Source: a virus. From it: DNA of 64,000 nt. The DNA lies in the IMG/VR virus record IMGVR_UViG_3300042008_000003, positions 1-64,000 of that record. One strand, 5' to 3'. Made by a program: the position numbers and the translations under genes. Numbering within the stretch: the first letter of the stretch is position 1; every line of letters begins with the position of its first letter. Shown one piece after another: positions 6,501 to 21,973 of this stretch. The notes under the pieces are model-generated. The model had not been told where the DNA came from. It made no database searches and saw only the letters and a program-made list of their open reading frames with translations.

Positions 6501-6511
6501 TGTTCTTTCTC

Positions 6512-8372: not shown

Positions 8373-8418
8373 CTCCTTTACTGTTAAAGCGTCTGGAACA
8401 TACTAAAACTCCGCATAA

Positions 8419-8763
8419 CTATTCACTTTGCTGCGAGAATTCAAGCACCAATCCCACCATAGCTACAGCAGTCCATGTATAATTAGCATTTACCAGCTGA
8501 TTTAGATTAGTAAAACCCGTTGATTCGATAAATGCCTCTATATCCACTCCAGTCTTCTTGCAAGCTCGGCGGATATACTTGGTAGCTGATGCTGGGATAT
8601 ACCAATGTGGCATGGTTAGTTTATATTTTGAGGCAATTTCACGCCAATATGGTTCATCTGTGTATGTAGTCTTCAGATTAGCTTTAGCATATTCTTGATC
8701 AGCAATACGCTTCTGTTTAATTTGTTCTCGTTGTTCTTCTGTCATTGGCACTAGATGTGTCAT
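8419..8763 (-). CDS. hypothetical protein
   Basis: ORF; start at MTHL. Confidence 0.65.
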   Translation of the reverse strand: MTHLVPMTEEQREQIKQKRIADQEYAKANLKTTYTDEPYWREIASKYKLTMPHWYIPASATKYIRRACKKTGVDIEAFIESTGFTNLNQLVNANYTWTAVAMVGLVLEFSQQSE

Positions 8764-8999
8764 TTTGTCACCCCTTTGTCTGAATAATACTGTTCTTCTG
8801 TCTTGCCTGTATAGGCTAACCACATATCTTTGTTTACAGAATCCCAATAACTAAATTGTGATTTAAAATAAGGCAGTTTTTTATTAAAGATATTAGTTTG
8901 CCGCAGATCAAAGTGTCCAGGCACCTCATTTAATTTACCATACACAAAATCTTTAGCTGCCTGTACAGCTTCTTTATATTTAATCTTACTGGGGGACAT
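8760..8999 (-). CDS. hypothetical protein
   Basis: ORF; AGGAG RBS before MSPS. Confidence 0.6.
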   Translation of the reverse strand: MSPSKIKYKEAVQAAKDFVYGKLNEVPGHFDLRQTNIFNKKLPYFKSQFSYWDSVNKDMWLAYTGKTEEQYYSDKGVTK

Positions 9000-9273
9000 T
9001 TTATCTCCTAATGCATTATTTTGCACGATCTTCATCAGTCATTACTGTGAAGTTATGATTGTTCATCTTACACTCCCTTTGTATAAATCATATGTACACT
9101 GACTACCCATCACCCTAACAGTCAATGCGTCTAGCAGATCAGGCTTACCAGCGCACAATACAATCCATAGTGTAATAAACCCAAGCCAACACAAATCATT
9201 TTTATTCATATATTCTCCTTACGCATTCTTTTGCACATCTTAGACGATTTTAGCCGACGATCTGCACTATATT

Positions 9274-9546
9274 TCACTTAACTAGTTCTAAATATGGTTT
9301 ATCTGTAAAAAGTAGGTACTGATCATACTCAATTCCGTCAAAAACTAGCTCAGAAAACTCTGCTTTTCTTTTAAACTTTTTACAAATATTGGTTATTGTC
9401 TCTTTGTTACATTTCAAAACTGTTCTATTATCTGAGACAACCCTGCGTTCCATGTCCATATGGATCATCCCACATTCATATCCAGCTGTAAAATTAACAG
9501 ACTGGTCTTCAAATTTAATTACTAATCCAAATTCTGCACTTTCCAT
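9274..9546 (-). CDS. hypothetical protein
   Basis: ORF with RBS. Confidence 0.65.
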   Translation of the reverse strand: MESAEFGLVIKFEDQSVNFTAGYECGMIHMDMERRVVSDNRTVLKCNKETITNICKKFKRKAEFSELVFDGIEYDQYLLFTDKPYLELVK

Positions 9547-9557
9547 TAAGATACCCC

Positions 9558-9842
9558 TTAAATCGTTATCCCGCTATTTATAGAACACTTCTTAACCAAA
9601 TAAGTGTGAATATCTTTAATTGTTTCCTCTGTAAAGCTATACCCTTCCTTAGACTCCTCAATCACAAGCTCTCGTGTAACATCCCAAGCTTTAGATTGAC
9701 ATTCTTTGAACACAGCATCATGCCATCTGTTATACATTGGCGATGTGATGACAACATTCTGCTTTGGTGGAGCAATTGTACAACCTGTTATCACAACAGT
9801 CAAGGATATTGTCAGGATAAGCTTTACAGAAGAAATATTCAT
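9558..9842 (-). CDS. putative lipoprotein
   Basis: signal peptide ending in lipobox-like VITGC. Confidence 0.6.
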   Translation of the reverse strand: MNISSVKLILTISLTVVITGCTIAPPKQNVVITSPMYNRWHDAVFKECQSKAWDVTRELVIEESKEGYSFTEETIKDIHTYLVKKCSINSGITI

Positions 9843-10033
9843 TTTGGTTTGTCCTTGAGGGGCTTCCTCAGTGAGACTTAGTTAATTTATCAAACTCTAC
9901 ACATTTAACTTCCTTTGTTCCATCATCTTTAAACACTCCAATCACTTGCATCTTTGTAAAGTCTAATTGATTGCATTTACGATCTGCGTGTTTACATTCA
10001 CAACACATGAAGCCTCTAGGGATGTGTGTGGGT

Positions 10034-10222
10034 TCAGCCATTTCTCTCCTCCTTTAGTGATTCAATATAATCCAATACATCTTGAGTCTGTTGTACAGCA
10101 TAAGAAATAAGTTCATTAGGTTCTACACCACAAGCTTTAGATATTTTTGTGCAACGATTATTGCACTTTTGTAGGTCTTTGTGCAATAATTCTAGCTGTT
10201 TTACAAGTTGATCCTTGTTCAC
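10034..10222 (-). CDS. hypothetical protein
   Basis: GAGGAGG RBS. Confidence 0.6.
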   Translation of the reverse strand: MNKDQLVKQLELLHKDLQKCNNRCTKISKACGVEPNELISYAVQQTQDVLDYIESLKEERNG

Positions 10223-10352
10223 TCCAGATCCTCCTCAATAATCTCTGGAAAATTATAACCCTCATAAATATATAGGTCACAAGACCAATTCATACTGGAC
10301 CATCGACATAAAGCCATAAAACCTCCTAATTAATTTATAAATATATAATAAC

Positions 10353-10388
10353 AAAAAGAGCAGCTAACCCGCAAGGACTAGCTGCTCT
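10353..10388 (-). terminator. rho-independent terminator
   Basis: AGAGCAGCTA/TAGCTGCTCT 10-bp stem with A-tract on the left. Confidence 0.7.
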
Positions 10389-10396
10389 AATTCTTT

Positions 10397-10579
10397 CTAT
10401 TGATTAAACAATTCTGATACATTTTCCTCATAGTACTCTCTAACCATCTGATTAATATCCCTATCAGACCAGTTCATTCCCACAATAATCTCTACAGCAT
10501 TCTCTGGGCTCCCAGATTGCCAATCAAACATACCCACCCAGCACCAATTACCATTAGGGAATAGATAAATTCTGTCCAT
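10397..10579 (-). CDS. hypothetical protein
   Basis: ORF, GAGGA RBS. Confidence 0.6.
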   Translation of the reverse strand: MDRIYLFPNGNWCWVGMFDWQSGSPENAVEIIVGMNWSDRDINQMVREYYEENVSELFNQ

Positions 10580-10588
10580 AGATATTCC

Positions 10589-10999
10589 TCACAGATATTT
10601 AGAATAAAGCATGTATTCATATTCTTTATCAAGAAAATTTACGAGATTACTTGAGACGTAAATATGACCAGTTTTCTTATTCAACTGTAGGCTAACAATA
10701 TTCACAATTTTAGCAGCCCGTGCTTTACGAACCTTATATGGGCTGAAGTCAAATGGAACTTTGTAGAAATAGCCACTATGATCGGCATAGTGATTATTAT
10801 GCAATTTCACAGCAGTGTGTATCGAAATGCTCCGGCGAGCTTTATTCTCGTAGTCATAGCTTACAAAGTGTGGGGAACCGAATAGACGACCTTCGTATTC
10901 ATAACTAAGTCCATGCATGAATTCTGTTAAAGACTTGAATTGAAGCTTATATGTGTCAATGATTTCTTCTGGTAGAAGGATGTTCTCTGTAGCTGTCAT
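10589..10999 (-). CDS. hypothetical protein
   Basis: ORF, AAGGAG RBS. Confidence 0.7.
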   Translation of the reverse strand: MTATENILLPEEIIDTYKLQFKSLTEFMHGLSYEYEGRLFGSPHFVSYDYENKARRSISIHTAVKLHNNHYADHSGYFYKVPFDFSPYKVRKARAAKIVNIVSLQLNKKTGHIYVSSNLVNFLDKEYEYMLYSKYL

Positions 11000-11010
11000 T
11001 TAGGTTCTCC

Positions 11011-11343
11011 TTATGGGTATTTAATATACTTGATAGTAGGTGTATATTCAGATTCATCGAATAGCTTATGATACTCATCAATCTGAGCTTTAGCCCAATC
11101 CAAGCCCTTAACGTCATCTAGTTCACAATTATTAATACAATTGACATCCGCTTGGTAAGCAAGTTCTCCTTTTTGAGTATCACAAAACATGTATTCAAGC
11201 AATGTTGCATAAGGCACTTCAACAAAATCAACCCATGTTGTAATCTTGGTAAGAGGATAACGATATTCTACCTGTGCTTTATAATTTACTGAGTTTAGTT
11301 TTTCAGTGACTTGAATTCGTGTGTTCCGTGTATATGGCATCAT
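11011..11343 (-). CDS. hypothetical protein
   Basis: ORF, AAGGAG RBS. Confidence 0.7.
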   Translation of the reverse strand: MMPYTRNTRIQVTEKLNSVNYKAQVEYRYPLTKITTWVDFVEVPYATLLEYMFCDTQKGELAYQADVNCINNCELDDVKGLDWAKAQIDEYHKLFDESEYTPTIKYIKYP

Positions 11344-11352
11344 TACTCTCCT

Positions 11353-11760
11353 TTAAATTTTGATTACTTCAACACCTTGACTTTTGAGGTATGCTAAACC
11401 CTCAACTGTCCTATATTCGTTACGATACCACACTCTTTTAATCTTTGCAGCTACTATCTTCAAACTACAATTCAAACAAGGGCTATGACTTACGAACATC
11501 TCAGCACCTTCTGATGTTTCAGTGCTTAGGTACAACTTCTCTAATGCAGCAGCTTCAGCGTGTCTTACAGTAGGCAATGTTTGCCCATATTCATCCTCAC
11601 AAATCTCTGTTTCCCACTTAGGTGGTTGACCATTTGTCCCAAGGCTTATGCAAGAATCATTTTTATAAATCATTGCACCAACCTTTAGCCTCTGTGCTTC
11701 TGAAGTTTCTCCAAACCTGCAAGTCATATCCATTAAAGCTAATGCGTATTTTTCTTTCAT
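11353..11760 (-). CDS. dCMP deaminase
   Basis: RLKVGA, HAE and PCxxC zinc-deaminase motifs. Confidence 0.92.
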   Translation of the reverse strand: MKEKYALALMDMTCRFGETSEAQRLKVGAMIYKNDSCISLGTNGQPPKWETEICEDEYGQTLPTVRHAEAAALEKLYLSTETSEGAEMFVSHSPCLNCSLKIVAAKIKRVWYRNEYRTVEGLAYLKSQGVEVIKI

Positions 11761-12068
11761 TGTGTCTTCTTCAATTGGCTTGCAAAACCCTTTCTACTAT
11801 TAGAACCGTAGGCGCTATATCCACCATCTTCACGACTAGATTTAGTCTTGATGGTCTTCGATGTCTTCACTGTATAAAAGTTTTCCCCGTATCGCTCATT
11901 ACAAGCTCGTTGAGCCTCTGATCGATCTGATGTGTGGAAATAAACATAATTTTGCATACTGTCCATGCAGAAGTATGTGGCAGGCTCAATGAATGAGTAA
12001 TCAGTGTATGTGATGTAATCTACAACCGTGATTTTAACTTCCTTAACCTTCTTTTCACTCATTGCCAA
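11757..12068 (-). CDS. hypothetical protein
   Basis: ORF with RBS. Confidence 0.65.
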   Translation of the reverse strand: MAMSEKKVKEVKITVVDYITYTDYSFIEPATYFCMDSMQNYVYFHTSDRSEAQRACNERYGENFYTVKTSKTIKTKSSREDGGYSAYGSNSRKGFASQLKKTQ

Positions 12069-12258
12069 TCTCCCTGAGCGTATTCTAGGTCAACCTCCAT
12101 ATTCCAGAAAGGGTCTACATCAAAGTTGTGCTCATGTATACACAAAAAATCCTCGTAGTCATCGCCAAGCTCATAAAGCAAGTCATTCAAATTCATTCTA
12201 TTCTCCTTTGTGTTAATCTGTCGCTATTGTAAGCCGACAGATTGGGGTCAGTCAATAA

Positions 12259-13029
12259 CTATTTTACAATTACTTCGCCACGGTATGGTTTGACAGGTTT
12301 TGGTTTAGATAGCTTCTTCTCTTTAGCCTCCCGTGCAGCAAGGGCTTTCTTAACACCAGCCTCTACAGCTTTCTCAATGATTTCTTCTAGGCTGAACTCT
12401 GGGGAATCTTCATCTTCTAGAGCCAGACTCTGATTGCGAGGACAGCTTTCGTCTCCACAATTACACGGCTGTGAGTTCCGATATTCATAAAAACCTTCCA
12501 TACGGCGTTCCAGCTCTTTTGCACCGAACCAGAACTCTTTACCATCATTACATAAAAGGATTTCATCGTCATTTAACAGACCCTTATATGTTGAGGTGAT
12601 TTCCTCCTCAAGCTGTTTAATACCAAACTCAGTCTGGGATTTCACATCAGGATTCTTACCGATAGACCCCCAAAAGGCACAATGCGCCATAAACTGGATA
12701 TGGTCAGCCCAATCATGCTGTTTACACGCCAAAAATACCCCTGTTGCAGCGCTCATGCAGTCATATTCAATAAATCCAACTACGTTAGCTTGAGATTCTT
12801 GAATTGCATTAATGATCATTCGTTCAGATGATACTGCACCACCTCTACTATTGATACGAATAATCACCTCGTCCTGTGGGCCACTGGTGCGAAGAGTGTT
12901 GCATAGGCTTACGTAATTTTCAGGTTCTGTAATAGGACCAGTAAGGTAGTAAGTATGTTGCTGTCCACGTACTTCTGTTGTAAAGACGTTCTGTGGTGGG
13001 AACATCGGAATAAAACTTTCTTCGCTCAT
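12259..13029 (-). CDS. ClpP-like ATP-dependent protease proteolytic subunit
   Basis: IRINSRGG, CMSAAT (catalytic Ser), FMAH; typical neighbour of phoH. Confidence 0.8.
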   Translation of the reverse strand: MSEESFIPMFPPQNVFTTEVRGQQHTYYLTGPITEPENYVSLCNTLRTSGPQDEVIIRINSRGGAVSSERMIINAIQESQANVVGFIEYDCMSAATGVFLACKQHDWADHIQFMAHCAFWGSIGKNPDVKSQTEFGIKQLEEEITSTYKGLLNDDEILLCNDGKEFWFGAKELERRMEGFYEYRNSQPCNCGDESCPRNQSLALEDEDSPEFSLEEIIEKAVEAGVKKALAAREAKEKKLSKPKPVKPYRGEVIVK

Positions 13030-13796
13030 AGGATAGTCTCCGGGACAGTATAGTTAATAAATGCTTGGTATGCACGTTCGTCTAACACATCTTTATACTT
13101 TTCAGCCCTTTCCTTTACAAGACATTCCTTGAACTCTTTATATACAGCAAATGCCTCAGTTGCACACTTATAGCGGCCTAAGTTTTTGTTTTTACCATTA
13201 ATTGCACAAGAAACAATATACTTCTGCGCACTGGTTTGGAAAGAAATACCCGCTGGTGTGCCTTTACCCGGCTTCACTTGTGTAACAATAATAGAATTTA
13301 GTTCTGGGGGCACAAATACGCACGTTTCAGGACCATAAACTTTATTACCTTGCACCAACACGTCCTTATCAAGTACATGTCCCATATTGTGTCCCGGTTG
13401 CCACTGGCACCATTCAGCAAACTCCTGAAAATTATGCCATTGTTCGTCTACTGAACATCCAACATAGGTTGGGAAACGTTGATGATATCCTTCATAATAG
13501 CTTCTTGTTAACATACTGGACCAATGAACATACTCGGGCGTTGTATCTATACCCTCCTTTGCTTTATATGGCCCAACCCCAAAGAATCCAATCCCTCTTA
13601 CTTGTGGATGAAAAGGATTTTTCACCCTACCAGTTAAAAGCTCTTGTGTAGCTGTAATTTTTTCATGGCCAGCGTAATCAATAAACTTTACTGTAATTTT
13701 ATTACATGCTTCATATTTTATGACTTCTACAGTACAACCTTGTCTTGTAGGGAACTTATCCCCAGCTTTAATTTTAGTTGAAAATACACCACCCAC
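13026..13796 (-). CDS. HNH-related homing endonuclease
   Basis: WSSMLTR, W.NFQ.FA.W, LDKD.L..GNK.YGPETC.FVP, C-terminal AP2-like NLGRY. Confidence 0.8.
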   Translation of the reverse strand: MGGVFSTKIKAGDKFPTRQGCTVEVIKYEACNKITVKFIDYAGHEKITATQELLTGRVKNPFHPQVRGIGFFGVGPYKAKEGIDTTPEYVHWSSMLTRSYYEGYHQRFPTYVGCSVDEQWHNFQEFAEWCQWQPGHNMGHVLDKDVLVQGNKVYGPETCVFVPPELNSIIVTQVKPGKGTPAGISFQTSAQKYIVSCAINGKNKNLGRYKCATEAFAVYKEFKECLVKERAEKYKDVLDERAYQAFINYTVPETIL

Positions 13797-14596
13797 TAAA
13801 CTTCTCCTTTTTCTTCTTTACGATATGCAATGATCCAGTCTTTGCACTGTTTGCTACGAACAATGTCATTGATATTATCAAAATCTACAAAACCAACATC
13901 AAGATGTGGATGTTTTTGAACCATATCTGTTAAATGACGCAGCCCACTGTTCTGATTTAACTCACTCTGTCCAACATCACCGGCAAGAATAAGCTTACAG
14001 TTCTTGCCTTGTCGGGTTACAAGCTTTTTAGCTTCATCCCGAGAAACGTCTTCTGCCTCGTCCACGATAAACCAGCAATTTTCTGCACTGAAGCCTTTAA
14101 TAGTTTCAAGAGGAAGAAAAATAATCTGTCCATGCTTCAAAGCAATTTCAAGTGCAGCTACTCCAATACGCTCATTTAAGATTGAAATTACTGGAGCAAG
14201 CCATTGAGTCATCTTTTCTTCAGCTGACCCTTTGAACATACCCAACGATTTACTATTGGAAATATTAGGACGACTAAAAATAATACGATCAATCTTGCCC
14301 AAGCGGAACAAATCACAAGCCATCATTGTAGGAATAAAGGTCTTCGATGTTCCCGGAAGGCCAGTCGCTATAACCATATCCTTTTCATTAAGTAGTCGAA
14401 TGTATTCAGCTTGCTTTTCATTCATAGGTTTGAGTGGTGCAAGCTTTTGTACGTGTTCGCGCTCCTCTTTAAACTTTGTAGCACTAATTGTTGCTTCTGG
14501 TTTCCCACCCTGCCTTGTGCGACGAGTCTTTTTACGGGGCTGAATCACTTCAACACCGTCCACTACTTCGATGAAACCGCGAGCATGACCACCCAT
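13796..14596 (-). CDS. phoH: PhoH-like ATPase
   Basis: N.KQ..Y, GLPGTSKT Walker A, IVDEAE, TRQG.N.K.IL.GD..QS.L. Confidence 0.93.
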   Translation of the reverse strand: MGGHARGFIEVVDGVEVIQPRKKTRRTRQGGKPEATISATKFKEEREHVQKLAPLKPMNEKQAEYIRLLNEKDMVIATGLPGTSKTFIPTMMACDLFRLGKIDRIIFSRPNISNSKSLGMFKGSAEEKMTQWLAPVISILNERIGVAALEIALKHGQIIFLPLETIKGFSAENCWFIVDEAEDVSRDEAKKLVTRQGKNCKLILAGDVGQSELNQNSGLRHLTDMVQKHPHLDVGFVDFDNINDIVRSKQCKDWIIAYRKEEKGEV

Positions 14597-14688
14597 AGTA
14601 TATTTCCCTTCTCTAGTTAAGTTTCAAAACTACTTCACTTTGTATGACCATAACCTAACACTTCTTGCTACTCTGTATGCCTATACAC

Positions 14689-14877
14689 TTACAGATCCTT
14701 CATCTCTGTCTCAATCGTCGCAATAGCCTTCTCAAAAGAGACATCACCCTCCACTAGTGTAGCAACTGTCGCAATGATATTCAAGAGATATTCTTTACCA
14801 TCACCCACATAATACACTAAACCAGATTCTGATGTGTATACTCCGTTTGATAGGGTTCCTCGTGTATTACCGACCAT
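14689..14877 (-). CDS. hypothetical protein
   Basis: ORF in operon. Confidence 0.55.
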   Translation of the reverse strand: MVGNTRGTLSNGVYTSESGLVYYVGDGKEYLLNIIATVATLVEGDVSFEKAIATIETEMKDL

Positions 14878-15070
14878 CTAGTTTATCTCCTTGCTCACCA
14901 CACCATTGATAATAAGACTCCAGCAACCCTTGGGCTTTTTGAAGTTTCTTTTTCATGTTCTTGGGTGCCTTTTCTCCTACGGGATGATTTAACAATTCTC
15001 TTTCAATTAGCACCTGAATTACAAATGTTGTGTGTAAAGCTTCATGATAATGGAATTTGTCTAACTTCAT
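14867..15070 (-). CDS. hypothetical protein
   Basis: AGGAGAG RBS. Confidence 0.65.
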   Translation of the reverse strand: MKLDKFHYHEALHTTFVIQVLIERELLNHPVGEKAPKNMKKKLQKAQGLLESYYQWCGEQGDKLDGR

Positions 15071-15081
15071 ATTATCTCTCC

Positions 15082-15417
15082 TTAAAAGTCTTCAACGATC
15101 TGCTGATAACTAGCAGCATTCTTCAACACAGATTCTAGCACTTTCCCTTGATAAGTCAAGCCATTATGAATAATCACTAAGAATTCTTTTTCAAATGGCA
15201 CTTGCAAGCAATTATCTGTGTACTTAAGTCTCTTCAAAGGCAACCCTTCAGTATTCCCATACTTTGCATCAAAGGCTATTACGCCTGATACGCTACGGAT
15301 ATTACCTTCATAGAAATGTAAAAATCCACTCTTGCAGCGAAAGACAAGTGATGTACGCTCATCGTTAATGATTAGGCTGTCTAGTGTTTCTCGTTTAAGT
15401 TCTTTGAAATCTGTCAC
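15082..15417 (-). CDS. hypothetical protein
   Basis: ORF, coupled. Confidence 0.65.
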   Translation of the reverse strand: MTDFKELKRETLDSLIINDERTSLVFRCKSGFLHFYEGNIRSVSGVIAFDAKYGNTEGLPLKRLKYTDNCLQVPFEKEFLVIIHNGLTYQGKVLESVLKNAASYQQIVEDF

Positions 15418-15677
15418 TCTTTAATTACCTCAAAATCTGTGATAGAAAAGTCCCAACATGCTGGATATATGCATTGACCATACTCCGTATATTCCCCGTT
15501 ATCCCTATCTACATCTAAACTATATAACCCGTCACCATTAGTTAGAATATCTGCTTCATACTCAATAAGCTCTTTTTCAATATCTTCTAGACCACAAACT
15601 GTGATTTTACCATTTATTTCATAAATAAATGTGTCCACATCTCCAAACTTCATGACCTTAATTTTAATACTCATCAT
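15414..15677 (-). CDS. hypothetical protein
   Basis: ORF, coupled. Confidence 0.65.
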   Translation of the reverse strand: MMSIKIKVMKFGDVDTFIYEINGKITVCGLEDIEKELIEYEADILTNGDGLYSLDVDRDNGEYTEYGQCIYPACWDFSITDFEVIKE

Positions 15678-15922
15678 TTATCCTCATGATTTGGTAGTAC
15701 ATTCTCTCTAGTGTAGAGGTTATTGGCCTTCAAGACTGAGGATAGCACACGATTCTCTTCTGTCAAAGCTTTCTTTTCCTCCAATGTCTGTTTCACCAAA
15801 TATTCCAATGCCTTGTAGTAAGGCATGTCCAGGATATTTGGGCGCATAAGTAATTCCTGAATCGTTCCCGACAGGCGATCTGGATCAAGATTCAACAACC
15901 AACGTATCTCGTTTTCTTTCAT
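15674..15922 (-). CDS. hypothetical protein
   Basis: GAGGA RBS. Confidence 0.65.
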   Translation of the reverse strand: MKENEIRWLLNLDPDRLSGTIQELLMRPNILDMPYYKALEYLVKQTLEEKKALTEENRVLSSVLKANNLYTRENVLPNHEDK

Positions 15923-15950
15923 GTGTTTTCCTCGGTAATTCTGGATTTAT

Positions 15951-16259
15951 TCATACTTCCCTGCCGTGTGCACAAATGCACCAATCAATAAAACTCTGAT
16001 ACTCGGCTTGATCTATTGAAATCAGCTCTGCTTGAGAAATAGCATACTCAACATCACCACGAATGTAGTCATTAAACCATTGAGTAAGATGGCCTTCATC
16101 ACTAATCATCTTATCCTTAAGCTGTTCATGAGTCTGCGGTTCAGTGATATCATCCTCACGCCGCCACTGAATAGCTGTATCTGCATAATCCTCAGCTATT
16201 CGTTCAGGAGACCATCGGTAGGTGTGTCCAAAGTTAGTCTTAACAATAAATTCTTTCAT
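15951..16259 (-). CDS. hypothetical protein
   Basis: GGAGGGG RBS before MKEF. Confidence 0.65.
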   Translation of the reverse strand: MKEFIVKTNFGHTYRWSPERIAEDYADTAIQWRREDDITEPQTHEQLKDKMISDEGHLTQWFNDYIRGDVEYAISQAELISIDQAEYQSFIDWCICAHGREV

Positions 16260-16600
16260 TTTAATCCCCTCCATAAAATTTAAAGTGTTCCTTAATTTCC
16301 TCAAGCAACTGTTTCTCAAGACTTCCTCTGAAGAACTGCCCTGAATCTATATCTATACTATAGTACAACCTAAACAAAAGCTCCTGTGCTTGCTCAGCTT
16401 CTTGTAATATTGTCACAAGTGATTTTAATTCCATCAAACCCTCCAGCAGCTATTCATGTTATAAGGCGGTACAAGGTAAATTTCAGCAAATGCGTTCGCA
16501 GATTCTCTTGTGGAGAACTCAGCTAGCTTCTCACGTTTGTAAAATATTGCAAAGCGTTTCTTGCCATAGGGTTTTTCTATTAGTTTTAGTTTTGTCATTA

Positions 16601-16792
16601 CTAAATACCCTCCCTTTGCTTGGAAATATTACCCCTCTCAAGCAAAATAACACTTTCTATATTTTTTAGTATAGACAATAAACTCTTAACTCTCCCTTTC
16701 TTTCCAGAGTTCATTGCTAATTCTAGCTGACCTCTAGTAAAAGCTCTTGCTATACATAGCCCTTCGATTACACCTTCATTCCAAATAGTCAT
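16601..16792 (-). CDS. hypothetical protein (first gene of leftward operon)
   Basis: directly downstream of promoter. Confidence 0.55.
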   Translation of the reverse strand: MTIWNEGVIEGLCIARAFTRGQLELAMNSGKKGRVKSLLSILKNIESVILLERGNISKQREGI

Positions 16793-16822
16793 ATCTTCTC
16801 TACTTCTGTATTTGATAGAAGA

Positions 16823-16851
16823 ATCATAGCATAGTGATCCATGGATTGCAA
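16823..16851 (-). promoter_or_regulatory. sigma70-type promoter driving leftward operon
   Basis: minus strand TTGCAA-N17-TATGAT with extended TG. Confidence 0.65.
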
Positions 16852-17055
16852 TAGTATTTTTGAGTAATTTATTTATGGTTAGATTTTATTGGAATAGGTG
16901 GTTGACATAGAACATTTTGTATGACAGTATGATTGGACATTGTGCTTCAGAGAAGGCACATAAATCAAACTATGATAGCTGGGATCTGGCTGTAGGCCAC
17001 ATACTGCCTAGCTTGTAGATAAATTAGACCCCCATATGGTAGAGAGGAGATATAG

Positions 17056-18315
17056 GTGGAGGAGGAAGAGGAGAATGTGAGTACAAGACTACTAACATAC
17101 AATATTAAGGTTGGAGTAGTAGCGAGTAACAAGGTAAGAGCTATGGAGGTTAAATATCCTTCTGTAATGGGTGTAATTATAACCAATATGTTAGCTTGCC
17201 TTAAGAAACAAGATAGATTGATGTACTCAAGACGTAAGCAGTACAAACCTAATGTCAATTCAAACAAGAAGAACATAAATCCAACACAAGTAATTAAATG
17301 TGTTGATATTCTTGTAGAATTAGGATATGCTATCAACGTTATTGGTAATGCACATAGCAACAAGGAGAATAGAACAATGAGCTACATTGTACCTACTGAT
17401 GAATTTATTAAAGAGTTCTGCACAGACGAAGAACAAGCAGAAATAGCTTATAATAGCTACATGTCTGCGTACCAAACGATCCAGCTACGTGATGAGAAGG
17501 GGCTAGATACTAACTTCTTTAATACACAGAGGCTTAAAGAAGCTTCGGAGCTTGTACAGAACTTAAACAAGATCAACGAAGGTTGTGTTATTCGTGTTGG
17601 ATATGCTAAACCTCTAACTAATTTCTACTGCCGTATCTTTAACACTGATATGGATCATGGTGGCAGGTTCTATAAGTCTGACGTACTACGCATTAAAAAT
17701 AAAAAGACCTCCACTCGCCTAGATATTACTATTGATGGTGAGGAGATTGTTGAGGTAGATTATAACTCACTGCATTTCCGTATCTGCGCAGCAAAGGAAG
17801 GTATTGACACATTCAGTCTGCCTAAAGATGTATATATGGATATCCTACCGGATGACGAAAAGACAGACATGAATCGTCTCATCGTAAAGCTTGCAGTTAA
17901 TATCATGTTCAACGCAAAAGATAAGAAGTCTGCACAGAAAGCTATTCAGGAGGAAGTTAACAAATACAAAGATGATCCTGATATGAGCTTTACAAAAGGC
18001 GCATATGTTCACTTTCTTATCATGGAGGCGTTCCCTAAATTCTCAAAGTATTTCTGCCGGGATGATAGCTATGGTCTTCGCTTACAGAACGATGACAGTT
18101 GGCTAGCTCATAAAGTCTTGAAGCATTTCGTTGATCAAGGTAAGCCATGTCTTCCAGTGCATGACAGTTTTATTGTCAAACGAAGTGATATTGATTTACT
18201 GACTAAAGCAATGGGTGACAGCTTCCGTGAACAGTTTGGGGTAGAAGAATGGGTTCCAGTCACTATCAACTGGAAAGACGAAGATGAAATTTACAAGAAG
18301 AGTGTAGTGGTATGA
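17056..18315 (+). CDS. minimal family-A-type (PolA / single-subunit RNAP superfamily) polymerase
   Basis: DxxGGRFY, motif A EVDYNSLHFRI, motif B RLIVKLAVNIMFN, motif C PVHDSF; no exonuclease domains. Confidence 0.75.
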   Translation: MEEEEENVSTRLLTYNIKVGVVASNKVRAMEVKYPSVMGVIITNMLACLKKQDRLMYSRRKQYKPNVNSNKKNINPTQVIKCVDILVELGYAINVIGNAHSNKENRTMSYIVPTDEFIKEFCTDEEQAEIAYNSYMSAYQTIQLRDEKGLDTNFFNTQRLKEASELVQNLNKINEGCVIRVGYAKPLTNFYCRIFNTDMDHGGRFYKSDVLRIKNKKTSTRLDITIDGEEIVEVDYNSLHFRICAAKEGIDTFSLPKDVYMDILPDDEKTDMNRLIVKLAVNIMFNAKDKKSAQKAIQEEVNKYKDDPDMSFTKGAYVHFLIMEAFPKFSKYFCRDDSYGLRLQNDDSWLAHKVLKHFVDQGKPCLPVHDSFIVKRSDIDLLTKAMGDSFREQFGVEEWVPVTINWKDEDEIYKKSVVV

Positions 18316-18536
18316 ATAACACAAATACTTGGTGGTATGGCTTTAAAGAAGCGGAACAACTTTACTATGAGGGTTTTGTTCCTGACTACAGTGATTTTCT
18401 TAGTGATTATATTTATTTTGTCAAGGACTACTGTATGCTGGGTATACCACTGAAACACAAAGAACGAAAAGCTGGAGTTTTAGATTATATTAAGTACTTT
18501 GAAACCAATGAGAAATATATTTCCAAAACCTATTGA
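18312..18536 (+). CDS. hypothetical protein
   Basis: ATGA-coupled to polymerase gene. Confidence 0.6.
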   Translation: MNNTNTWWYGFKEAEQLYYEGFVPDYSDFLSDYIYFVKDYCMLGIPLKHKERKAGVLDYIKYFETNEKYISKTY

Positions 18537-18560
18537 CATTCACTATTCAATAGTGATACT
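18533..18560 (+). promoter_or_regulatory. promoter with palindromic spacer
   Basis: TTGACA-N16-GATACT; TCACTATT-c-AATAGTGA inverted repeat inside. Confidence 0.5.
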
Positions 18561-18593
18561 CTTTATATTATAAATCAAAGAAGGGGTCCACTT

Positions 18594-18770
18594 ATGGGCG
18601 AGATTCATTTCTGTTCCCAGTGTGGACGGATTAACAACTATTGTGTATGTGATATTGAGGTAGAATACCTAGAGGATAGCATTGAAGTGTTTAGGACAGA
18701 ATATTCATTTGAAAGCCTTACTGATCCAGATTTCAGTGTTTACAAAACTATTTTACCTAAATATGAATAA
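18594..18770 (+). CDS. small Cys-rich protein (58 aa; not in ORF track)
   Basis: AAGGGG RBS; MGEIHFCSQCGRINNYCVC...PKYE*. Confidence 0.55.
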   Translation: MGEIHFCSQCGRINNYCVCDIEVEYLEDSIEVFRTEYSFESLTDPDFSVYKTILPKYE

Positions 18771-18774
18771 ATGC

Positions 18775-18803
18775 TTGACAAACAATCAAAAACATGCGAT
18801 GAT
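18775..18803 (+). promoter_or_regulatory. putative promoter for ncRNA/tRNA cluster
   Basis: TTGACA-N17-GATGAT with extended TG. Confidence 0.5.
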
Positions 18804-18810
18804 TAGATAT

Positions 18811-19356
18811 ATTCAGTCGTAAAGCTGAATCACGTAATAAAAGCCTTGGTGATATGGCACGACTCTATCGATTTCCATATGTTTGTCGGTAGGGTGCGAG
18901 CAAGGCTTAAGGTTCACATATTACAAAAGATGCTTAGGCTGAGTATGTGTGACGCTGCATAGGCAGTCTTGTTCAGCCAAGATTTCAGATAGCTTAGGTT
19001 ACTGATAGTGCCAGACTCCCGACATAGTTAATTCTATGGCTCCAGAGACCACTGGTTTAAAGAGGAGTCGAGTGAAGAACACATTCAATCTTGACGAAGA
19101 TTGTCTAATTCCCTTTAAGGGGCTTGAAGAATTCTGACGAGAGTTTAAAGTCTTCCCTTTGTGTGACGGGGAGCAATGACTTACGCAAGGCACTCTGGAT
19201 AGTACAGAGTAATCAGTAAAGAGAGAACTTGATTGGTACTGGTAGAAAGTTACCTAAACGAGCAGTCAAGAAGTGAGGCTGGTGATGTACAGGTGAAGCT
19301 GTGCGGAGTATCTTAGCTGATCAAGACATAAAACGAGGCGACTCTACGCGCCTATC
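18811..19356 (+). ncRNA. large structured ncRNA candidate (ROOL/GOLLD-like context)
   Basis: ORF-free on + strand; more than 12 helices, including long-range 18966-18983/19310-19327; directly upstream of tRNAs. Confidence 0.7.
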
Positions 19357-19401
19357 TCTTACATTGTTGGTAATCAATCCAACCCTTGCACCTATTTATA
19401 T

Positions 19402-19477
19402 TCCGAAGTAGCTCAGCAGGCAGAGCGGCAAACTGTTAATTTGCATGTCGGTGGATCGTACCCACCCTTCGGAGCCA
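19402..19477 (+). tRNA. tRNA-Asn(GTT)
   Basis: full cloverleaf TCCGAAG/CTTCGGA, anticodon loop CTGTTAA, encoded CCA. Confidence 0.92.
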
Positions 19478-19483
19478 ATTTAA

Positions 19484-19559
19484 GCCTTTGTACCGTATCG
19501 CTCAACGGATCAACCTTGTAAGTTGAAAGCAGTCAGTTGGACTCTGACCGAAGGCTCCA
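19484..19559 (+). tRNA. tRNA-Thr(TGT), non-canonical D/T loops
   Basis: GCCTTTG/CGAAGGC acceptor, TCAAC-CTTGTAA-GTTGA, T-loop TTGGACT, CCA. Confidence 0.82.
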
Positions 19560-19562
19560 AAT

Positions 19563-19639
19563 ATTCCCGTAATTCAATTGGATAGAATATCTGTCTTCTA
19601 AACAGAACGTTGCTGGATCGTACCCAGCCGGGAATACCA
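19563..19639 (+). tRNA. tRNA-Arg(TCT)
   Basis: ATTCCCG/CGGGAAT, TCTGT-CTTCTAA-ACAGA, CCA. Confidence 0.92.
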
Positions 19640-19708
19640 AACAAGCAGTAGGCTTGTAAGTGGCAACTTTGCCAAAACTGAAGATCCTGAATGGATCGGA
19701 GAAATAAA

Positions 19709-19996
19709 ATGATTAAATTTAAAAACGTTGAGCCAGAAAACCTTAACCATAAAGTTGAGTTTGTTGTACGTCCAGTAACTCGTTATATTGTTACCCGGTA
19801 CAGTAAGACCGAGACTACAGGAAACTCCGAAAATTGTGGGGAGTTTCCAAACGTTGGCCTAGCCAATCGTACAGCTCACGCCTTATCACTGGCTGAGCTT
19901 AAACACAACCCTTTTGACGAAGTTTATTACAAACTTTACAGTCACGATTATGACGAGCTTGAGTATCCAAACAATGGATACATTCAAGTTAGTTAA
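19709..19996 (+). CDS. hypothetical protein within tRNA region
   Basis: GGAG RBS before MIKF. Confidence 0.65.
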   Translation: MIKFKNVEPENLNHKVEFVVRPVTRYIVTRYSKTETTGNSENCGEFPNVGLANRTAHALSLAELKHNPFDEVYYKLYSHDYDELEYPNNGYIQVS

Positions 19997-20048
19997 AAGT
20001 TTCACCTACAATCACTAAGATTAAGTCTAAAAAGATTGTGGTATTCAC

Positions 20049-20184
20049 GCTGTCATTTTCCTCTCCTTACGACAGCACTTAAGATATTCTCTGTTCCTCC
20101 TCTCTCCTCACAGATAATATCTTCTGGCCTTGGATAGATTATAAGAGTCCTCTCCTTCTCGTATAATCTTCGCTAACAGGGCCA
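20049..20184. ncRNA. candidate sRNA: three tandem hairpins with CCUCUCCU (or AGGAGAGG) loops
   Basis: three unrelated stems sharing a TCCTCTCCT-type loop. Confidence 0.55.
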
Positions 20185-20274
20185 TTTCTTAAAATTCCTG
20201 TGACTGATTAGTTATTATTGCAAGTGGACTTGTCAGGAATTTTAAGAAATCATTTATTCATAGGAATATACATT

Positions 20275-20673
20275 ATGACTACCAAGAATAAAAATCCTAG
20301 TCCAGCGACAAGATTTGATGGTCCTAAATCAAACCGTAAAACCACTGGCGGTAACAGTAAACGCATCACTAAAAGCAAGCTTCGTATTCTAGAAGAACAA
20401 TTGCTTGAGATGAAAGATAAAGCTCTTGAGAATATCAAGAAGAGTATCAACGGCGAACAGATTGACACTGAACAGCTTGGTTCAAGTAAGTGGTTGGTTA
20501 ACAGCATCGTAACAGTGTCAAAATCAGCTAATGCTGAAGAAATTTCTTACAACAAGCTTAAGTTTGAAGTGAAGGATTCTCTGGAATCTGGTGAACAGAC
20601 TCCTTCTGAAATTAAAGCAGAATTAAAGCCTCGTTTGAGTCTAGTCTACACAGAGCCTGACCAAGACGAGTAA
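20275..20673 (+). CDS. hypothetical protein, possibly terminase small subunit
   Basis: AGGA RBS; basic N-terminus, helical core, acidic tail; upstream of terL. Function by analogy only. Confidence 0.4.
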   Translation: MTTKNKNPSPATRFDGPKSNRKTTGGNSKRITKSKLRILEEQLLEMKDKALENIKKSINGEQIDTEQLGSSKWLVNSIVTVSKSANAEEISYNKLKFEVKDSLESGEQTPSEIKAELKPRLSLVYTEPDQDE

Positions 20674-20752
20674 TTAACACGGCCTTGGTCTGTGTATCTG
20701 AGAACTTTGCCTAGTTCTTCGGACGCCCCTAACCAACAGGGGCAACTATTCT

Positions 20753-20841
20753 GCAACAGACGCCAGTATTAGTTTGCTGGCACTCGCCTCATAAGCGAGA
20801 GTCCTAGACCGTTGTGAGTGCAATTCTCACCTGTTGCCCCA
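20753..20841 (+). tRNA. atypical tRNA with CAT anticodon (Met/Ile2-like)
   Basis: GCAACAG/CTGTTGC acceptor, CTCGC-CTCATAA-GCGAG, GTGAG-TGCAATT-CTCAC, CCA; extended D-stem and 14-nt variable region. Confidence 0.7.
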
Positions 20842-20980
20842 ATTATACTCATAAAAATAATTGAGTATAAAGTTAAAAGACATAGATACTTACTCCTTTT
20901 ATTATCTATGTCCTATTTTCTCTCGTTATTGAGAGATGCAGAGGTAAGCTGATACTTACCAACTCAGGAAAGGTGACTTT

Positions 20981-21973
20981 GTGTATTACACAGACCCCCT
21001 TACTACTGAGCTTGTAATGCCTGTTGAAGATCCTATTGTTGTCAATACAGAAATCGGGGAGTTACATATCTCTGATCCTGTTGTTGTAATGGAACCCTCA
21101 ACAAAACAACACAAGCATAAAAATAAGAAACGACATAAAAGGAAAAAGAAAATGGCTAGCGTAGAAACTCCAACCTTCTTGGCAACTGGCGGTAATGAAG
21201 GTGCAGGTATTGGCGGGATTGGTGGTGTACTTGTAGGTGCCCTACTCGCTCGTGGTGGTTTGCTTGGTAATGATCGTGGTGTTGTAGGGGAAGGTTGTGT
21301 TACCCCAGCTACTTTCACTGCTGGTATTACTGGTGTCACTGATGCAATTCAAAACACTGAAGTTATGAGTTCTCTTGGTGATATTAAGGCAGCTATTCCA
21401 TTAGCTGAAGCACAAGTTCAATTGGCTCTGGCTGTAACTCAATCTGAACTTGCTGGTCAAATCAACACAGCTAATATTGCTAACTTGGTTGGTCAGGCTG
21501 CTATCAACAAAAATATAAGTGAAGCTATTGCTGCCTCACTTGCATCGCAAAACAACATCAACGTTAATGTGCTGCAAACTGGCACCGCAAACTTGATGGC
21601 AACAAAAGATGCACAATTTGCTCTGTCTAATATTGTTAAAGAAGATGGTGAGAAGACTCGTGCTCTCATTACTTCCAATCAGATTAGCGAGCTTCAACGT
21701 CTGGCTGCTGAACGTCAAGATGAGATTATTGAACTTCGCAATGGCTCTGCTCGTGATAGAGACCGCCATGGTATTGAAATCAATATGATCAACAATCAGA
21801 ACCAAAACCAAATGCAATTCCAACAACAAGCCCAAGCTCTTGTGAGTCTTGGTCACTGCTTGGCCGATGTAAGTCAACTTGCTCGTGCAACCAATACCAA
21901 CCTAATTGTTGGTAATACTGGTGCTGTTGCAACTGGCCCACAAACAGCCAACCCTGTGAACGTTAAAGCGTAA
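20981..21973 (+). CDS. Gly/Ala/Asn/Gln-rich coiled-coil protein (alternative start ATG 21152)
   Basis: long ORF, codon usage like the capsid genes; EDGEKTRALI motif. Confidence 0.75.
   Translation: MYYTDPLTTELVMPVEDPIVVNTEIGELHISDPVVVMEPSTKQHKHKNKKRHKRKKKMASVETPTFLATGGNEGAGIGGIGGVLVGALLARGGLLGNDRGVVGEGCVTPATFTAGITGVTDAIQNTEVMSSLGDIKAAIPLAEAQVQLALAVTQSELAGQINTANIANLVGQAAINKNISEAIAASLASQNNINVNVLQTGTANLMATKDAQFALSNIVKEDGEKTRALITSNQISELQRLAAERQDEIIELRNGSARDRDRHGIEINMINNQNQNQMQFQQQAQALVSLGHCLADVSQLARATNTNLIVGNTGAVATGPQTANPVNVKA

What the first reader, a model, noticed from the sequence alone, without database searches (positions are those of the whole stretch)
20049..20184. Three tandem hairpins displaying anti-Shine-Dalgarno loops (GGA loops on the other strand)
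Seen: stem GCTGTC/GACAGC (20049-76) with loop ATTTTCCTCTCCTTAC; stem AAGATATTcTCTGT/ACAGAtAATATCTT (20081-123) with loop TCCTCCTCTCTCCTC; stem AGATTATAaGAG/CTCgTATAATCT (20136-69, outer TGGCCT/GGGCCA) with loop TCCTCTCCTT. The stems are unrelated but the loops share CTCTCCT, the complement of AGGAGAG, the RBS used by many genes of this phage. Known: C-rich loops pair with SD sequences (S. aureus RNAIII), and GGA loops sequester CsrA/RsmA (CsrB, RsmY/Z). Inference: a multivalent sRNA, either an RBS-blocking repressor (+ strand, co-oriented with the tRNAs) or a phage RsmA/CsrA sponge (- strand).
Basis: partly seen in the sequence, partly recalled or inferred. Interest (0 to 1): 0.8.

Follow-up and report, generated by a model that had tools for sequence, protein, structure and literature searches.

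The report
Phage RNA with anti-Shine-Dalgarno hairpin loops
An uncultured 88-kb phage and its relatives keep, beside their tRNA genes, a folded RNA of about 250 bases whose three central hairpin tips always expose a pyrimidine motif that mirrors ribosome-binding sites, so it probably damps translation, though no transcript, target or effect has been shown.

Summary
The three hairpins are real, at the stated coordinates. They form the core (H1-H3, 20049-20184) of a larger five-hairpin element (19999-20250).

I found the element in 22 viral or metagenome contigs. Stems differ and co-vary: 57 distinct stems among 62 unique hairpins. All 62 loops keep CUCC, and 47 of 62 keep CUCUCCU.

Context favours the + strand. 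tRNAs are co-oriented in 10 of 10 loci that have tRNA calls. The element starts 0-9 nt after a tRNA in three loci. Promoter-like sites lie upstream on that strand. G·U against A·C counts favour the + strand only modestly. The minus-strand RsmA/CsrA sponge reading finds no promoter, terminator, GacA box or Rfam support.

The closest known kind is the cuckoo/αr14 sRNA family: 2-4 hairpins with variable stems and CCUCCUCCC loops. NfeR1 of that family blocks ribosome-binding sites. Membership fails: ar14 scores 15.5 bits against a cut-off of 58.8, and none of the 62 loops carries that motif.

New here: Pseudomonas phages phiPMW and vB_PpS_SYP carry one CCCUCUCCU-loop hairpin behind the promoter-like site of their tRNA operons, which offers a cultured test system.

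The function is untested. This scan had already flagged the same family on other genomes.

The parts
19999..20006 (+). Conserved 5' motif GTTTCACC that opens the element. In relatives it follows a tRNA 3' end by 0-9 nt.
   Evidence: Alignments. Gaps to the tRNA are 0 nt in L004, 9 nt in L002 and 1 nt in L052. It is not a repeated genome motif: 4 copies on the + strand and 0 on the - strand.
20006..20041 (+). H0, an 8-bp stem with an A-rich branched loop. It carries no CU motif here.
   Evidence: Fold. There are 15 distinct arm pairs in 22 elements. Own arms give -8.3 kcal/mol against -1.4 for swapped arms.
20049..20076 (+). H1, stem GCTGTC/GACAGC with the 16-nt loop AUUUUCCUCUCCUUAC.
20081..20123 (+). 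H2, a 13-pair stem with the 15-nt loop UCCUCCUCUCUCCUC. The stem base AAGA/UCUU is conserved and the upper stem is variable.
20125..20184 (+). H3, an outer stem (UGGCCUUG/ACAGGGCCA) enclosing the inner hairpin 20136-20169 with loop UCCUCUCCUU.
   Evidence: In a subset of 16 hairpins chosen by eye, 6 of 6 pairs next to the loop show compensatory change. Single-hairpin model R1 scores 29.2 bits here.
20185..20249 (+). H4, a long terminal hairpin. Its base UUUCUUAA/UUAAGAAA is conserved, its upper stem co-varies and its apical part keeps a UAUUGCAAG-like motif. No U-tract follows. It may mark the 3' boundary or a processing site (inference).
   Evidence: Upper stem own arms give -6.9 against -2.7 kcal/mol for swapped arms. 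The apical motif is not repeated in the genome.
19402..19639 (+). tRNA-Asn, tRNA-Thr and tRNA-Arg on the same strand, upstream. This is context: the likely co-transcription unit.
   Evidence: ARAGORN and Rfam tRNA hits.
18775..18803 (+). Sigma-70-like promoter site (TTGACA-17-GATGAT with TG) upstream of the non-coding region and tRNAs. A second site lies at 18533-18560. This is context.
   Evidence: These are consensus matches only.
20275..20673 (+). Conserved 132-aa ORF downstream of the element in this and many related contigs, but not in all. Its function is unknown.
   Evidence: 78-98% identity among 10 copies. No Pfam or PHROG family. The Atlas gives only unnamed viral clusters. The element is followed by other genes or by a tRNA in L008, L026 and others.

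Best explanation
The DNA at 19999-20250 encodes a discrete, structured non-coding RNA of about 250 nt. It is made from the + strand as part of the phage's tRNA/RNA operon.

Its 5' end is probably freed by tRNA 3' processing. Its 3' side is probably bounded by the long hairpin H4. Both points are inferred.

The three central hairpins hold pyrimidine-only loops with the core CUCUCC(U) single-stranded. The proposed mechanism is inferred by analogy with the cuckoo/αr14 sRNA NfeR1. Each loop would pair with purine-rich Shine-Dalgarno sequences of the AGGAG(A/G) type, and the loop U allows either A or G. That pairing would block 30S binding on several messages at once.

The best-matching ribosome-binding sites in this genome belong to the small-gene blocks outside the structural module. 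The RNA may therefore turn down early and middle phage messages, and perhaps host messages, as it accumulates.

Shown here: structure, conservation, covariation, complementarity and genomic context. Not shown: the transcript, its ends, any target and any effect.
For: **Structure and conservation**
- The fold has z = -5.95 on the + strand.
- I collected 22 elements of 211-281 nt from viral and metagenome contigs.
- They hold 66 CU-loop hairpins. Twenty elements have 3, L006 has 4 and L009 has 2.
- Of these, 62 are unique and they carry 57 distinct stems.
- Duplex energy for a hairpin's own arms is -12.4 kcal/mol, against -3.0 for swapped arms.
- Loop letters are C 376, U 312, A 14 and G 1. CUCC is in 62 of 62 loops, UCUCC in 56 of 62 and CUCUCCU in 47 of 62.
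- The neighbouring 132-aa protein stays 78-98% identical, so the stems change fast while pairing and loops are kept.

**Strand**
- All tRNA calls in 10 of 10 loci that have any lie on the CU-loop strand.
- The whole element is more stable on the + strand in 19 of 22 cases.
- A strand-neutral stem count gives G·U-type 31 against A·C-type 16.
- Promoter-like sites lie 40-65 nt upstream on this strand in L016, phiPMW and SYP. The SYP site matches 12 of 12 consensus positions.

**Complementarity**
- Predicted loop-TIR duplexes average -8.4 kcal/mol, against -3.5 for random 25-mers.
- Duplexes of -10 kcal/mol or better occur in 22 of 42, 21 of 41 and 17 of 40 genes of the three non-structural blocks. 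Only 8 of 41 structural-block genes reach that level (Mann-Whitney p = 0.0026).

**Precedent**
- αr14/cuckoo sRNAs have the same build (PMC4615179).
- NfeR1 silences mRNAs through three redundant aSD loops (passages of PMC10746234).
- Rfam ar14 aligns full-length to exactly H1-H3 on the + strand, but sub-threshold.

**Weak hint of RNA**
- Contigs from two metatranscriptome libraries (X24, X23) cover relatives' arrays.
Against: **No direct evidence of a transcript.** The runs laid are contigs. They carry no strand or end information, and DNA may be present in RNA libraries.

**The structural strand test is modest and depends on how stems are defined.**
- Hairpins defined on + strand folds give G·U 58 against 15.
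- Hairpins defined on - strand folds give 27 (+) against 25 (-).
- The neutral count over all positions is 50 against 35, p = 0.13.
- Three of 22 elements are not more stable on the + strand.

**The complementarity says little on its own.** Any SD-bearing message pairs with such loops. The difference between gene blocks may only reflect SD strength. My gene calls are crude and pick starts partly by SD presence.

**The rest is open or circular.**
- A three-loop RNA would need very high abundance to affect many messages.
- The host is unknown.
- H4 has no U-tract, so the 3' end is undefined.
- The covariation subset was chosen by eye for symmetric hairpins, which makes that test partly circular.
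Confidence: 0.45

Rival explanations
1. The RNA is a protein-binding platform rather than an antisense RNA. The + strand RNA would display multiple pyrimidine loops to capture a protein. Candidates are ribosomal protein S1, Rho (which binds YC-rich RNA), a factor that recognises the 16S 3' end, or a phage RNA-binding protein such as the conserved 132-aa neighbour.
For: The display is multivalent, with 3-4 identical loops on unrelated stems. That is the same logic as protein sponges. The loops are almost pure C/U. A conserved small basic protein of unknown family lies next to the element in many loci. What S1 and Rho prefer to bind is recalled knowledge and was not tested here.
Against: The loop core is sequence-specific: UCUCC is in 56 of 62 loops, not merely pyrimidine-rich. 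The element also occurs without the 132-aa ORF beside it, in L008, L026 and others. No RNA-binding domain was found in the neighbours.
Confidence: 0.2
2. The element acts in cis on the tRNA operon transcript. It would serve processing, stability, termination or read-through control between the RNA island and the downstream genes, with no trans targets.
For: - It sits directly after tRNAs, with gaps of 0-9 nt in L004, L052 and L002.
- In phiPMW and SYP the single hairpin lies in the operon leader, 40-65 nt after the promoter-like site.
- In L026 a tRNA follows 11 nt after H4.
- H4 is a long duplex of the sort RNase III cuts (recalled).
Against: A processing or stability hairpin does not need an invariant SD-complementary loop repeated three times on unrelated stems. 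A rut-like terminator ahead of tRNAs, as the position in phiPMW, SYP and L026 would imply, would be counter-productive.
Confidence: 0.15
3. The functional RNA is the minus strand. It would display GGA-containing purine loops (AAGGAGAGGA) and act as a sponge for host RsmA/CsrA, like RsmY/RsmZ/CsrB.
For: - Each loop complement holds one or two GGA motifs in an A(N)GGA context (sequence).
- The - strand also folds, with z = -3.09.
- The nearest cultured relatives infect Pseudomonas, which uses Rsm. That last point is recalled.
- A promoter-like site on the - strand lies about 600 nt downstream, at 20871-20842.
- Hairpins defined on - strand folds show no G·U disadvantage, 25 against 27.
Against: - It would be antisense to every neighbouring gene and tRNA, in 10 of 10 loci.
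- No Csr/Rsm Rfam match appears at E up to 10.
- GacA-box-like matches are at chance level.
- No terminator-like site lies on the - strand within or just beyond the element.
- Fewer hairpins survive on - strand folds, 48 against 62.
- The neutral count favours the + strand, 31 against 16.
- In phiPMW and SYP the hairpin lies just downstream of a strong promoter-like site that reads the CU strand.
Confidence: 0.07
4. The element works at the DNA level. The hairpins would be extruded in single-stranded or supercoiled DNA and serve replication, packaging or an unusual promoter.
For: Pairing is kept on both strands by construction. A·C-type positions are not rare, 16-35 in the neutral counts.
Against: The GC-skew switch is at about 16.5 kb, not at the array. 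The element has a fixed orientation relative to tRNAs in all loci, and the loop motif always lies on the transcribed strand. The element motifs are not repeated elsewhere in the genome.
Confidence: 0.03

Closest known systems
Cuckoo / αr14 sRNA family of Alphaproteobacteria (Rfam RF02344 ar14; RSs0680 = CcsR1-4 of Rhodobacter, NfeR1 = SmelC397 of Sinorhizobium)
   Same: - It has 2-4 adjacent hairpins with highly variable stems and one conserved pyrimidine loop motif that resembles an anti-SD (PMC4615179, abstract and section 6).
- The three loops of NfeR1 are redundant seeds that occlude ribosome-binding sites (PMC10746234, passages).
- CcsR RNAs are processed out of a longer transcript by RNase E (PMC8034643, abstract only). 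That parallels the proposed release of this element from a tRNA operon.
   Different: - The loop motif here is CCUCUCCU/CUCUCC. None of the 62 loops holds CCUCCUCCC.
- The ar14 model scores 15.5 bits against a gathering score of 58.8.
- This element has extra conserved flanking hairpins, H0 and H4, and a 5' motif.
- It is encoded by a virulent-type phage inside a tRNA cluster, not on an alphaproteobacterial replicon.
- No DUF1127 gene is found beside it.
CsrB / RsmY / RsmZ protein-sponge sRNAs
   Same: Several hairpins display one short motif. On the minus strand the loops would carry GGA.
   Different: The strand context points the other way. There is no Rfam match, no GacA box and no terminator on that strand. 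The loops are 8-20 nt of homopurine, not the short A(N)GGA loops typical of these sRNAs (the latter is recalled).
C-rich-loop antisense sRNAs of Gram-positives (S. aureus RNAIII, RsaE, IsrR; M. tuberculosis 6C)
   Same: C-rich unpaired loops target G-rich SD regions of several mRNAs. For 6C and IsrR I saw only the title and the start of the abstract in the listing. For RNAIII stem-loop 13 I saw a passage of the review PMC12197685.
   Different: They have different motifs (CCCC/UCCC), are unrelated in sequence, are chromosomal and are not linked to tRNAs. This is resemblance of mechanism only.
Phage translational shut-off of early genes by proteins (T4 RegA)
   Same: The proposed outcome is the same: early messages are silenced at their ribosome-binding sites. 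RegA is described in this way in a passage of PMC5587285.
   Different: RegA is a protein. Here the proposed effector is an RNA. No RegA-like gene was looked for.
c4 antisense RNA of phages P1/P7
   Same: It is a phage-encoded structured RNA whose loop sequences pair around a ribosome-binding site (review passage).
   Different: c4 has one specific target operon and its own complementary sites. It is not a generic SD complement and not a hairpin array.

Membership tests
Cuckoo / αr14 (Rfam RF02344) | 2-4 adjacent hairpins with variable stems | tested here: met
   Three adjacent CU-loop hairpins here. Across the 22 elements there are 3 in 20, 4 in L006 and 2 in L009, with 57 distinct stems.
Cuckoo / αr14 (Rfam RF02344) | Every loop carries CCUCCUCCC (PMC4615179 abstract) | tested here: not met
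   None of the 62 unique loops holds CCUCCUCCC, and 8 of 62 hold CCUCCUC. The core here is CUCUCC.
Cuckoo / αr14 (Rfam RF02344) | Covariance-model score at or above Rfam's gathering score | tested here: not met
   ar14 aligns to 20041-20173 on the + strand at 15.5 bits, against 58.8, with E = 0.79 in a 301-base search. It was not listed at E up to 1 in the 4-kb search.
Cuckoo / αr14 (Rfam RF02344) | Trans-acting repression through aSD loops pairing at translation initiation regions | not testable with these tools
   I have only predicted duplex energies. The experimental precedent is for NfeR1.
CsrB/RsmY/RsmZ-type RsmA/CsrA sponge | GGA motifs in loops of the transcribed strand | tested here: inconclusive
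   The GGA loops exist only on the - strand. Context and the neutral wobble count of 31 against 16 favour + strand transcription. No strand-specific reads were available.
CsrB/RsmY/RsmZ-type RsmA/CsrA sponge | Match to a curated Csr/Rsm RNA family | tested here: not met
   No Csr/Rsm family appears among the 4 matches at E up to 10.
CsrB/RsmY/RsmZ-type RsmA/CsrA sponge | Own promoter with a GacA/UvrY box, and an intrinsic terminator on that strand (motif recalled) | tested here: not met
   The box pattern gives 40 matches with up to 3 mismatches, against 42.8 expected, and none lies next to the element. No - strand terminator-like site lies at the element.
Intrinsic terminator (for H4) | G+C-rich stem followed by a U-tract | tested here: not met
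   No terminator-like site at 20185-20260 on either strand. The stem is A+U-rich and is followed by UCAUUUAUUCAU.

The most novel reading that the evidence does not exclude
A virulent phage uses its tRNA operon to mass-produce a multivalent anti-Shine-Dalgarno RNA that acts as a global translational timer. This would be an RNA counterpart of T4 RegA. As it accumulates it would mask AGGAG(A/G)-type ribosome-binding sites of early and middle phage messages and of host messages, handing ribosomes to the weaker-SD late genes. The copy number of the loop module, one in phiPMW and SYP and three or four in this clade, would tune its strength.
Probability: 0.3. Interest if true: 0.8.

Novelty: new variant of a known kind. 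Interest (0 to 1): 0.6.

Why it matters
Regulatory RNAs of virulent phages are little explored. A 2025 review of phage-derived sRNAs has no passage on lytic phages, tRNAs or CsrA. Its single Shine-Dalgarno mention concerns a bacterial sRNA.

If this element works as proposed, it would show that the architecture of variable stems with a fixed anti-SD loop arose or spread outside Alphaproteobacteria. It would also show that phages can control translation globally with an RNA made alongside their tRNAs.

The single-hairpin versions in phiPMW (host Pseudomonas putida) and vB_PpS_SYP (host P. plecoglossicida) make the idea testable in culture.

Tried and rejected
**Searches that found nothing useful**
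- BLAST of the element and of the 132-aa ORF against 50,697 phage records gave no match. Megablast of 19300-21000 hit only a 73-nt stretch outside the element.
- The leaders of phiPMW and SYP match other phages only in their tRNA parts.
- Pfam, PHROGs and the ESM Atlas gave nothing for the neighbouring ORFs.

**Alignment-based structure prediction failed**
- RNAalifold on a MAFFT alignment of 20 elements recovered only 4 pairs. MAFFT cannot put unrelated stems in register. I used arm-swap tests and a fixed-width hairpin alignment instead.

**Ideas tested and dropped**
- H4's apical motif, or GTTTCACC, as a repeated phage promoter: neither is repeated in the genome.
- DNA-level origin: the skew switch is at 16.5 kb.
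- GacA box: matches are at chance level.
- The vB_PsaM_M1 intergenic stretch L182:4646-4858 has one CU-loop hairpin but folds no better than shuffles, z = -1.06. I do not count it as a member.

**Host not settled**
- The sigma-70-type scan of 1-19000 is not enriched over shuffles.
- One 3.5-kb contig binned in a Pedobacter MAG carries the 132-aa ORF without the array. That is too weak to name a host.

**Sequencing runs**
- Only the probable source run holds the full stretch.
- The runs laid (X24, X23, X20, X2) are contigs of relatives. Gaps in their cover and their depths say nothing about expression.

**The 3x CTCTCCT scan**
It mostly returned unrelated tandem repeats.

**Literature**
- Searches, and the review, gave no description of such a phage RNA.
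They could hold phage sRNA lists that I did not see.

Full report
**What is there**

The window is the first 64 kb of an 87,840-bp viral record that is about 99% complete. Its G+C content is 39.3%.

The flagged stretch lies in a 279-nt gap between a 101-aa ORF (19691-19996) and a conserved 132-aa ORF (20275-20673). It is downstream of tRNA-Asn, tRNA-Thr and tRNA-Arg (19402-19639, + strand).

Folded as + strand RNA, the gap gives five hairpins with z = -5.95. None of 200 shuffles folds as well. The hairpins are:
- H0, 20006-20041
- H1, 20049-20076
- H2, 20081-20123
- H3, 20125-20184, with its inner hairpin at 20136-20169
- H4, 20185-20249, a long terminal hairpin

CTCTCCT sits in each loop. A scan of the whole genome for hairpins with pyrimidine-run loops finds no second cluster.

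**Conservation**

I used the 132-aa ORF and two DNA patterns as handles. This yielded 22 copies of the element, 211-281 nt long, from contigs that are mostly 84-93 kb.

All copies share the same order of parts:
- a 5' motif, (G)TTTCACC
- H0
- three CU-loop hairpins (four in L006; two plus a CU loop in H0 in L009)
- H4, with a conserved UUUCUUAA/UUAAGAAA base

The 66 CU-loop hairpins reduce to 62 unique ones with 57 distinct stems.
- A hairpin's own arms pair at -12.4 kcal/mol on average, against -3.0 when arms are swapped between hairpins.
- H0 has 15 distinct arm pairs, -8.3 against -1.4. The upper stem of H4 gives -6.9 against -2.7.
- I chose 16 symmetric CCUCUCCU hairpins by eye from 25, so the following test is partly circular. 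All 6 pairs next to the loop show compensatory changes. 83% of cells are paired, against 51% in shuffles (0 of 500 as high) and 22-41% with slid partners.

The loops are nearly pure pyrimidine: C 376, U 312, A 14, G 1. They hold CUCC in 62 of 62 cases, UCUCC in 56 of 62, CUCUCCU in 47 of 62 and CCUCC in only 11 of 62.

Meanwhile the adjacent protein is 78-98% identical among 10 copies. So stems turn over quickly while pairing and loops are held. Hairpin modules are also reshuffled between relatives. For example, this window shares H3 with L003 and H4 with L004.

**Which strand**

Context is the stronger argument.
- In 10 of 10 loci with any ARAGORN call, every tRNA is on the CU-loop strand. 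The other 12 fetched stretches held no tRNA.
- The element begins 0 nt after tRNA-Arg in L004, 1 nt after tRNA-Thr in L052 and 9 nt after tRNA-Arg in L002.
- In L026 a tRNA-Gln follows H4 by 11 nt.
- A promoter-like site lies 46 nt upstream on this strand in L016.

The structural evidence is modest.
- The whole element is more stable on the + strand in 19 of 22 cases.
- Hairpins defined on + strand folds give G·U 58 against 15.
- Hairpins defined on - strand folds give 27 (+) against 25 (-), and only 48 hairpins survive there.
- A strand-neutral stem finder gives G·U-type 31 against A·C-type 16 when flanked by Watson-Crick pairs (p = 0.04; sequences not independent). Over all positions it gives 50 against 35, p = 0.13.

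For the - strand I found only one promoter-like site, about 600 nt away. There is no terminator-like site at the element, no Csr/Rsm family match at E up to 10, and GacA-box-like matches are at chance level.

**Cultured relatives**

The large terminase is 42% identical to that of Pseudomonas phage phiPMW. It is 39% and 38% identical to those of vB_PpS_SYP and vB_PsaM_M1.

I built a covariance model of the single hairpin (R1).
- In this genome it hits only the array at good scores.
- In 146.6 kb of relatives' loci it gives 24 hits at E up to 1, and 23 of them lie in arrays. Most of those are its own training sequences.
- It finds one hit in SYP (18.1 bits, E = 0.005) and one in phiPMW (14.6 bits, E = 0.09).

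Both hits are hairpins with a CCCUCUCCU loop on different stems. Each is followed by a shared ATTGGAT(G/A)AAG. Each lies 40-65 nt downstream of a TTGACA-N17/18-TATAAT/TAATAT site, at the head of the tRNA cluster and on the tRNA strand. The SYP site matches 12 of 12 consensus positions.

The scores alone are borderline. The shared context is what persuades me. This extends the hairpin module to cultured Pseudomonas phages. It also puts the module just behind sigma-70-type promoter-like sites that read the CU strand.

**What it may do**

The loops complement AGGAGAG(G). The U opposite the sixth position would also pair with G, so both AGGAGA and AGGAGG sites fit.

In a crude call of 191 ORFs, 58 have AGGAG upstream. 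Of these, 38 read AGGAGA, 9 AGGAGG and 13 AGGAGAG.

Predicted loop-TIR duplexes average -8.4 kcal/mol, against -3.5 for random 25-mers. Counts of genes with a duplex of -10 kcal/mol or better, by block:

| Gene block | Genes at -10 kcal/mol or better |
|---|---|
| Left, - strand, 0-17 kb | 22 of 42 |
| Middle, - strand, 53-75 kb | 21 of 41 |
| Right, + strand, 75-88 kb | 17 of 40 |
| Structural, + strand, 20.9-53 kb | 8 of 41 |

The structural block differs from the other three with Mann-Whitney p = 0.0026. This fits an RNA that masks early and middle ribosome-binding sites. It may equally reflect only SD strength by gene class, and my start-codon choice used SD presence.

No transcript was shown. 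Contigs from two metatranscriptome libraries cover relatives' arrays. One is a 1439-nt contig that joins tRNA-Arg directly to the array and the ORF. These contigs carry no strand information and may be DNA.

**Comparison with known families**

Earlier notes of this scan on related genomes pointed me to the cuckoo/αr14 family. I checked that lead myself.
- The family is defined as 2-4 adjacent hairpins with variable stems, each loop carrying CCUCCUCCC (PMC4615179, abstract and section 6).
- NfeR1 uses three redundant aSD loops to occlude ribosome-binding sites (PMC10746234, passages).
- CcsR RNAs are cut from a longer transcript by RNase E (PMC8034643, abstract only).

The architecture and the likely mechanism match. 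Membership does not.
- None of the 62 loops carries the family motif.
- Rfam's ar14 model aligns to exactly H1-H3 on the + strand, but at 15.5 bits against a cut-off of 58.8.
- The element has extra conserved parts: H0, H4 and the 5' motif.
- It lives in a phage tRNA cluster.

I file it as a new variant of a known kind.

Full-text searches and a 2025 review read by passages gave no description of it. Supplements were closed.

**Verdict**

| Claim | My estimate |
|---|---|
| The observation | Confirmed |
| The element is a structured RNA made from the + strand | About 0.85 |
| It acts by masking Shine-Dalgarno sites | About 0.45 |
| Rival: protein-binding platform | 0.2 |
| Rival: cis-acting operon element | 0.15 |
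| Rival: minus-strand RsmA sponge | 0.07 |
| Rival: DNA-level role | 0.03 |

This scan had already reported the same family on several other genomes, with the same reading. New in this report are the strand controls, the H0 and H4 covariation, the module mosaicism and the single-hairpin versions in phiPMW and SYP.

Noticed in passing
window 18811-19394: A roughly 600-nt non-coding stretch lies between a TTGACA-17-GATGAT site (18775-18803) and the tRNAs. Its last 73 nt (19322-19394) are 94.5% identical to vB_PsaM_M1 39117-39189. That stretch likewise lies upstream of the M1 tRNA cluster and is annotated there as a hypothetical protein on the opposite strand. No Rfam family matches at E up to 1. 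It is probably a second conserved phage RNA.
   Followed up: partly
window 19639-19997: A 359-bp segment carrying the 101-aa ORF (19691-19996) is a polymorphic insertion between tRNA-Arg and the element. L004 lacks it (tRNA-to-element gap of 0 nt). Contigs of runs X24 and X20 join 19638 directly to 19998, while X2 and X23 contigs hold it.
   Followed up: partly
L186:1091-1185 (phiPMW 43390-43484) and L187:1026-1118 on the - strand (vB_PpS_SYP 81725-81817): Each cultured Pseudomonas phage has one CCCUCUCCU-loop hairpin in the leader of its tRNA operon, 40-65 nt after a sigma-70-type promoter-like site. The stems differ and both are followed by a shared ATTGGAT(G/A)AAG. Neither record annotates it.
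   Followed up: partly
window 20049-20249 compared with L002, L003, L004, L031: The hairpins behave as exchangeable cassettes. This window shares its H3 stem with L003 and its H4 with L004, while L002, L003 and L031 share another H4. The flanking 132-aa protein is 92-98% identical in these loci. This suggests recombination at the conserved junctions.
   Followed up: partly
window 20879-20912 and 16676-16716: Two further single hairpins have CUCC-containing loops on the + strand. The first follows the aberrant tRNA(CAT) and is followed by CTATTTTCTCTC, so it may end the RNA island. The second lies in the divergent control region.
   Followed up: no
window 20753-20841: ARAGORN alone calls an 89-nt tRNA-Met(CAT). 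Rfam's tRNA model does not report it at E up to 1. Relatives have a tRNA-Met call at the same relative place.
   Followed up: no
window 20275-20673: The 132-aa ORF has a basic N-terminus and is 78-98% identical in 10 contigs. It has no Pfam or PHROG family and no match in 50,697 phage records. It often, but not always, lies next to the element.
   Followed up: partly
L183 (3.5-kb contig binned in a Pedobacter MAG): It carries an 88%-identical copy of the 132-aa ORF directly behind a structural-type gene, with no array and no tRNA. This is too short a contig to support a host assignment. The phage's strong SD usage argues against a Bacteroidota host (that last point is recalled knowledge).
   Followed up: no
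window 17056-18315: A 419-aa ORF heads the rightward RNA island. It has only a PHROG of unknown function (phrog_4756, E = 6e-60) and no Pfam family. In vB_PsaM_M1 the gene in the corresponding place is annotated as DNA polymerase.
   Followed up: no
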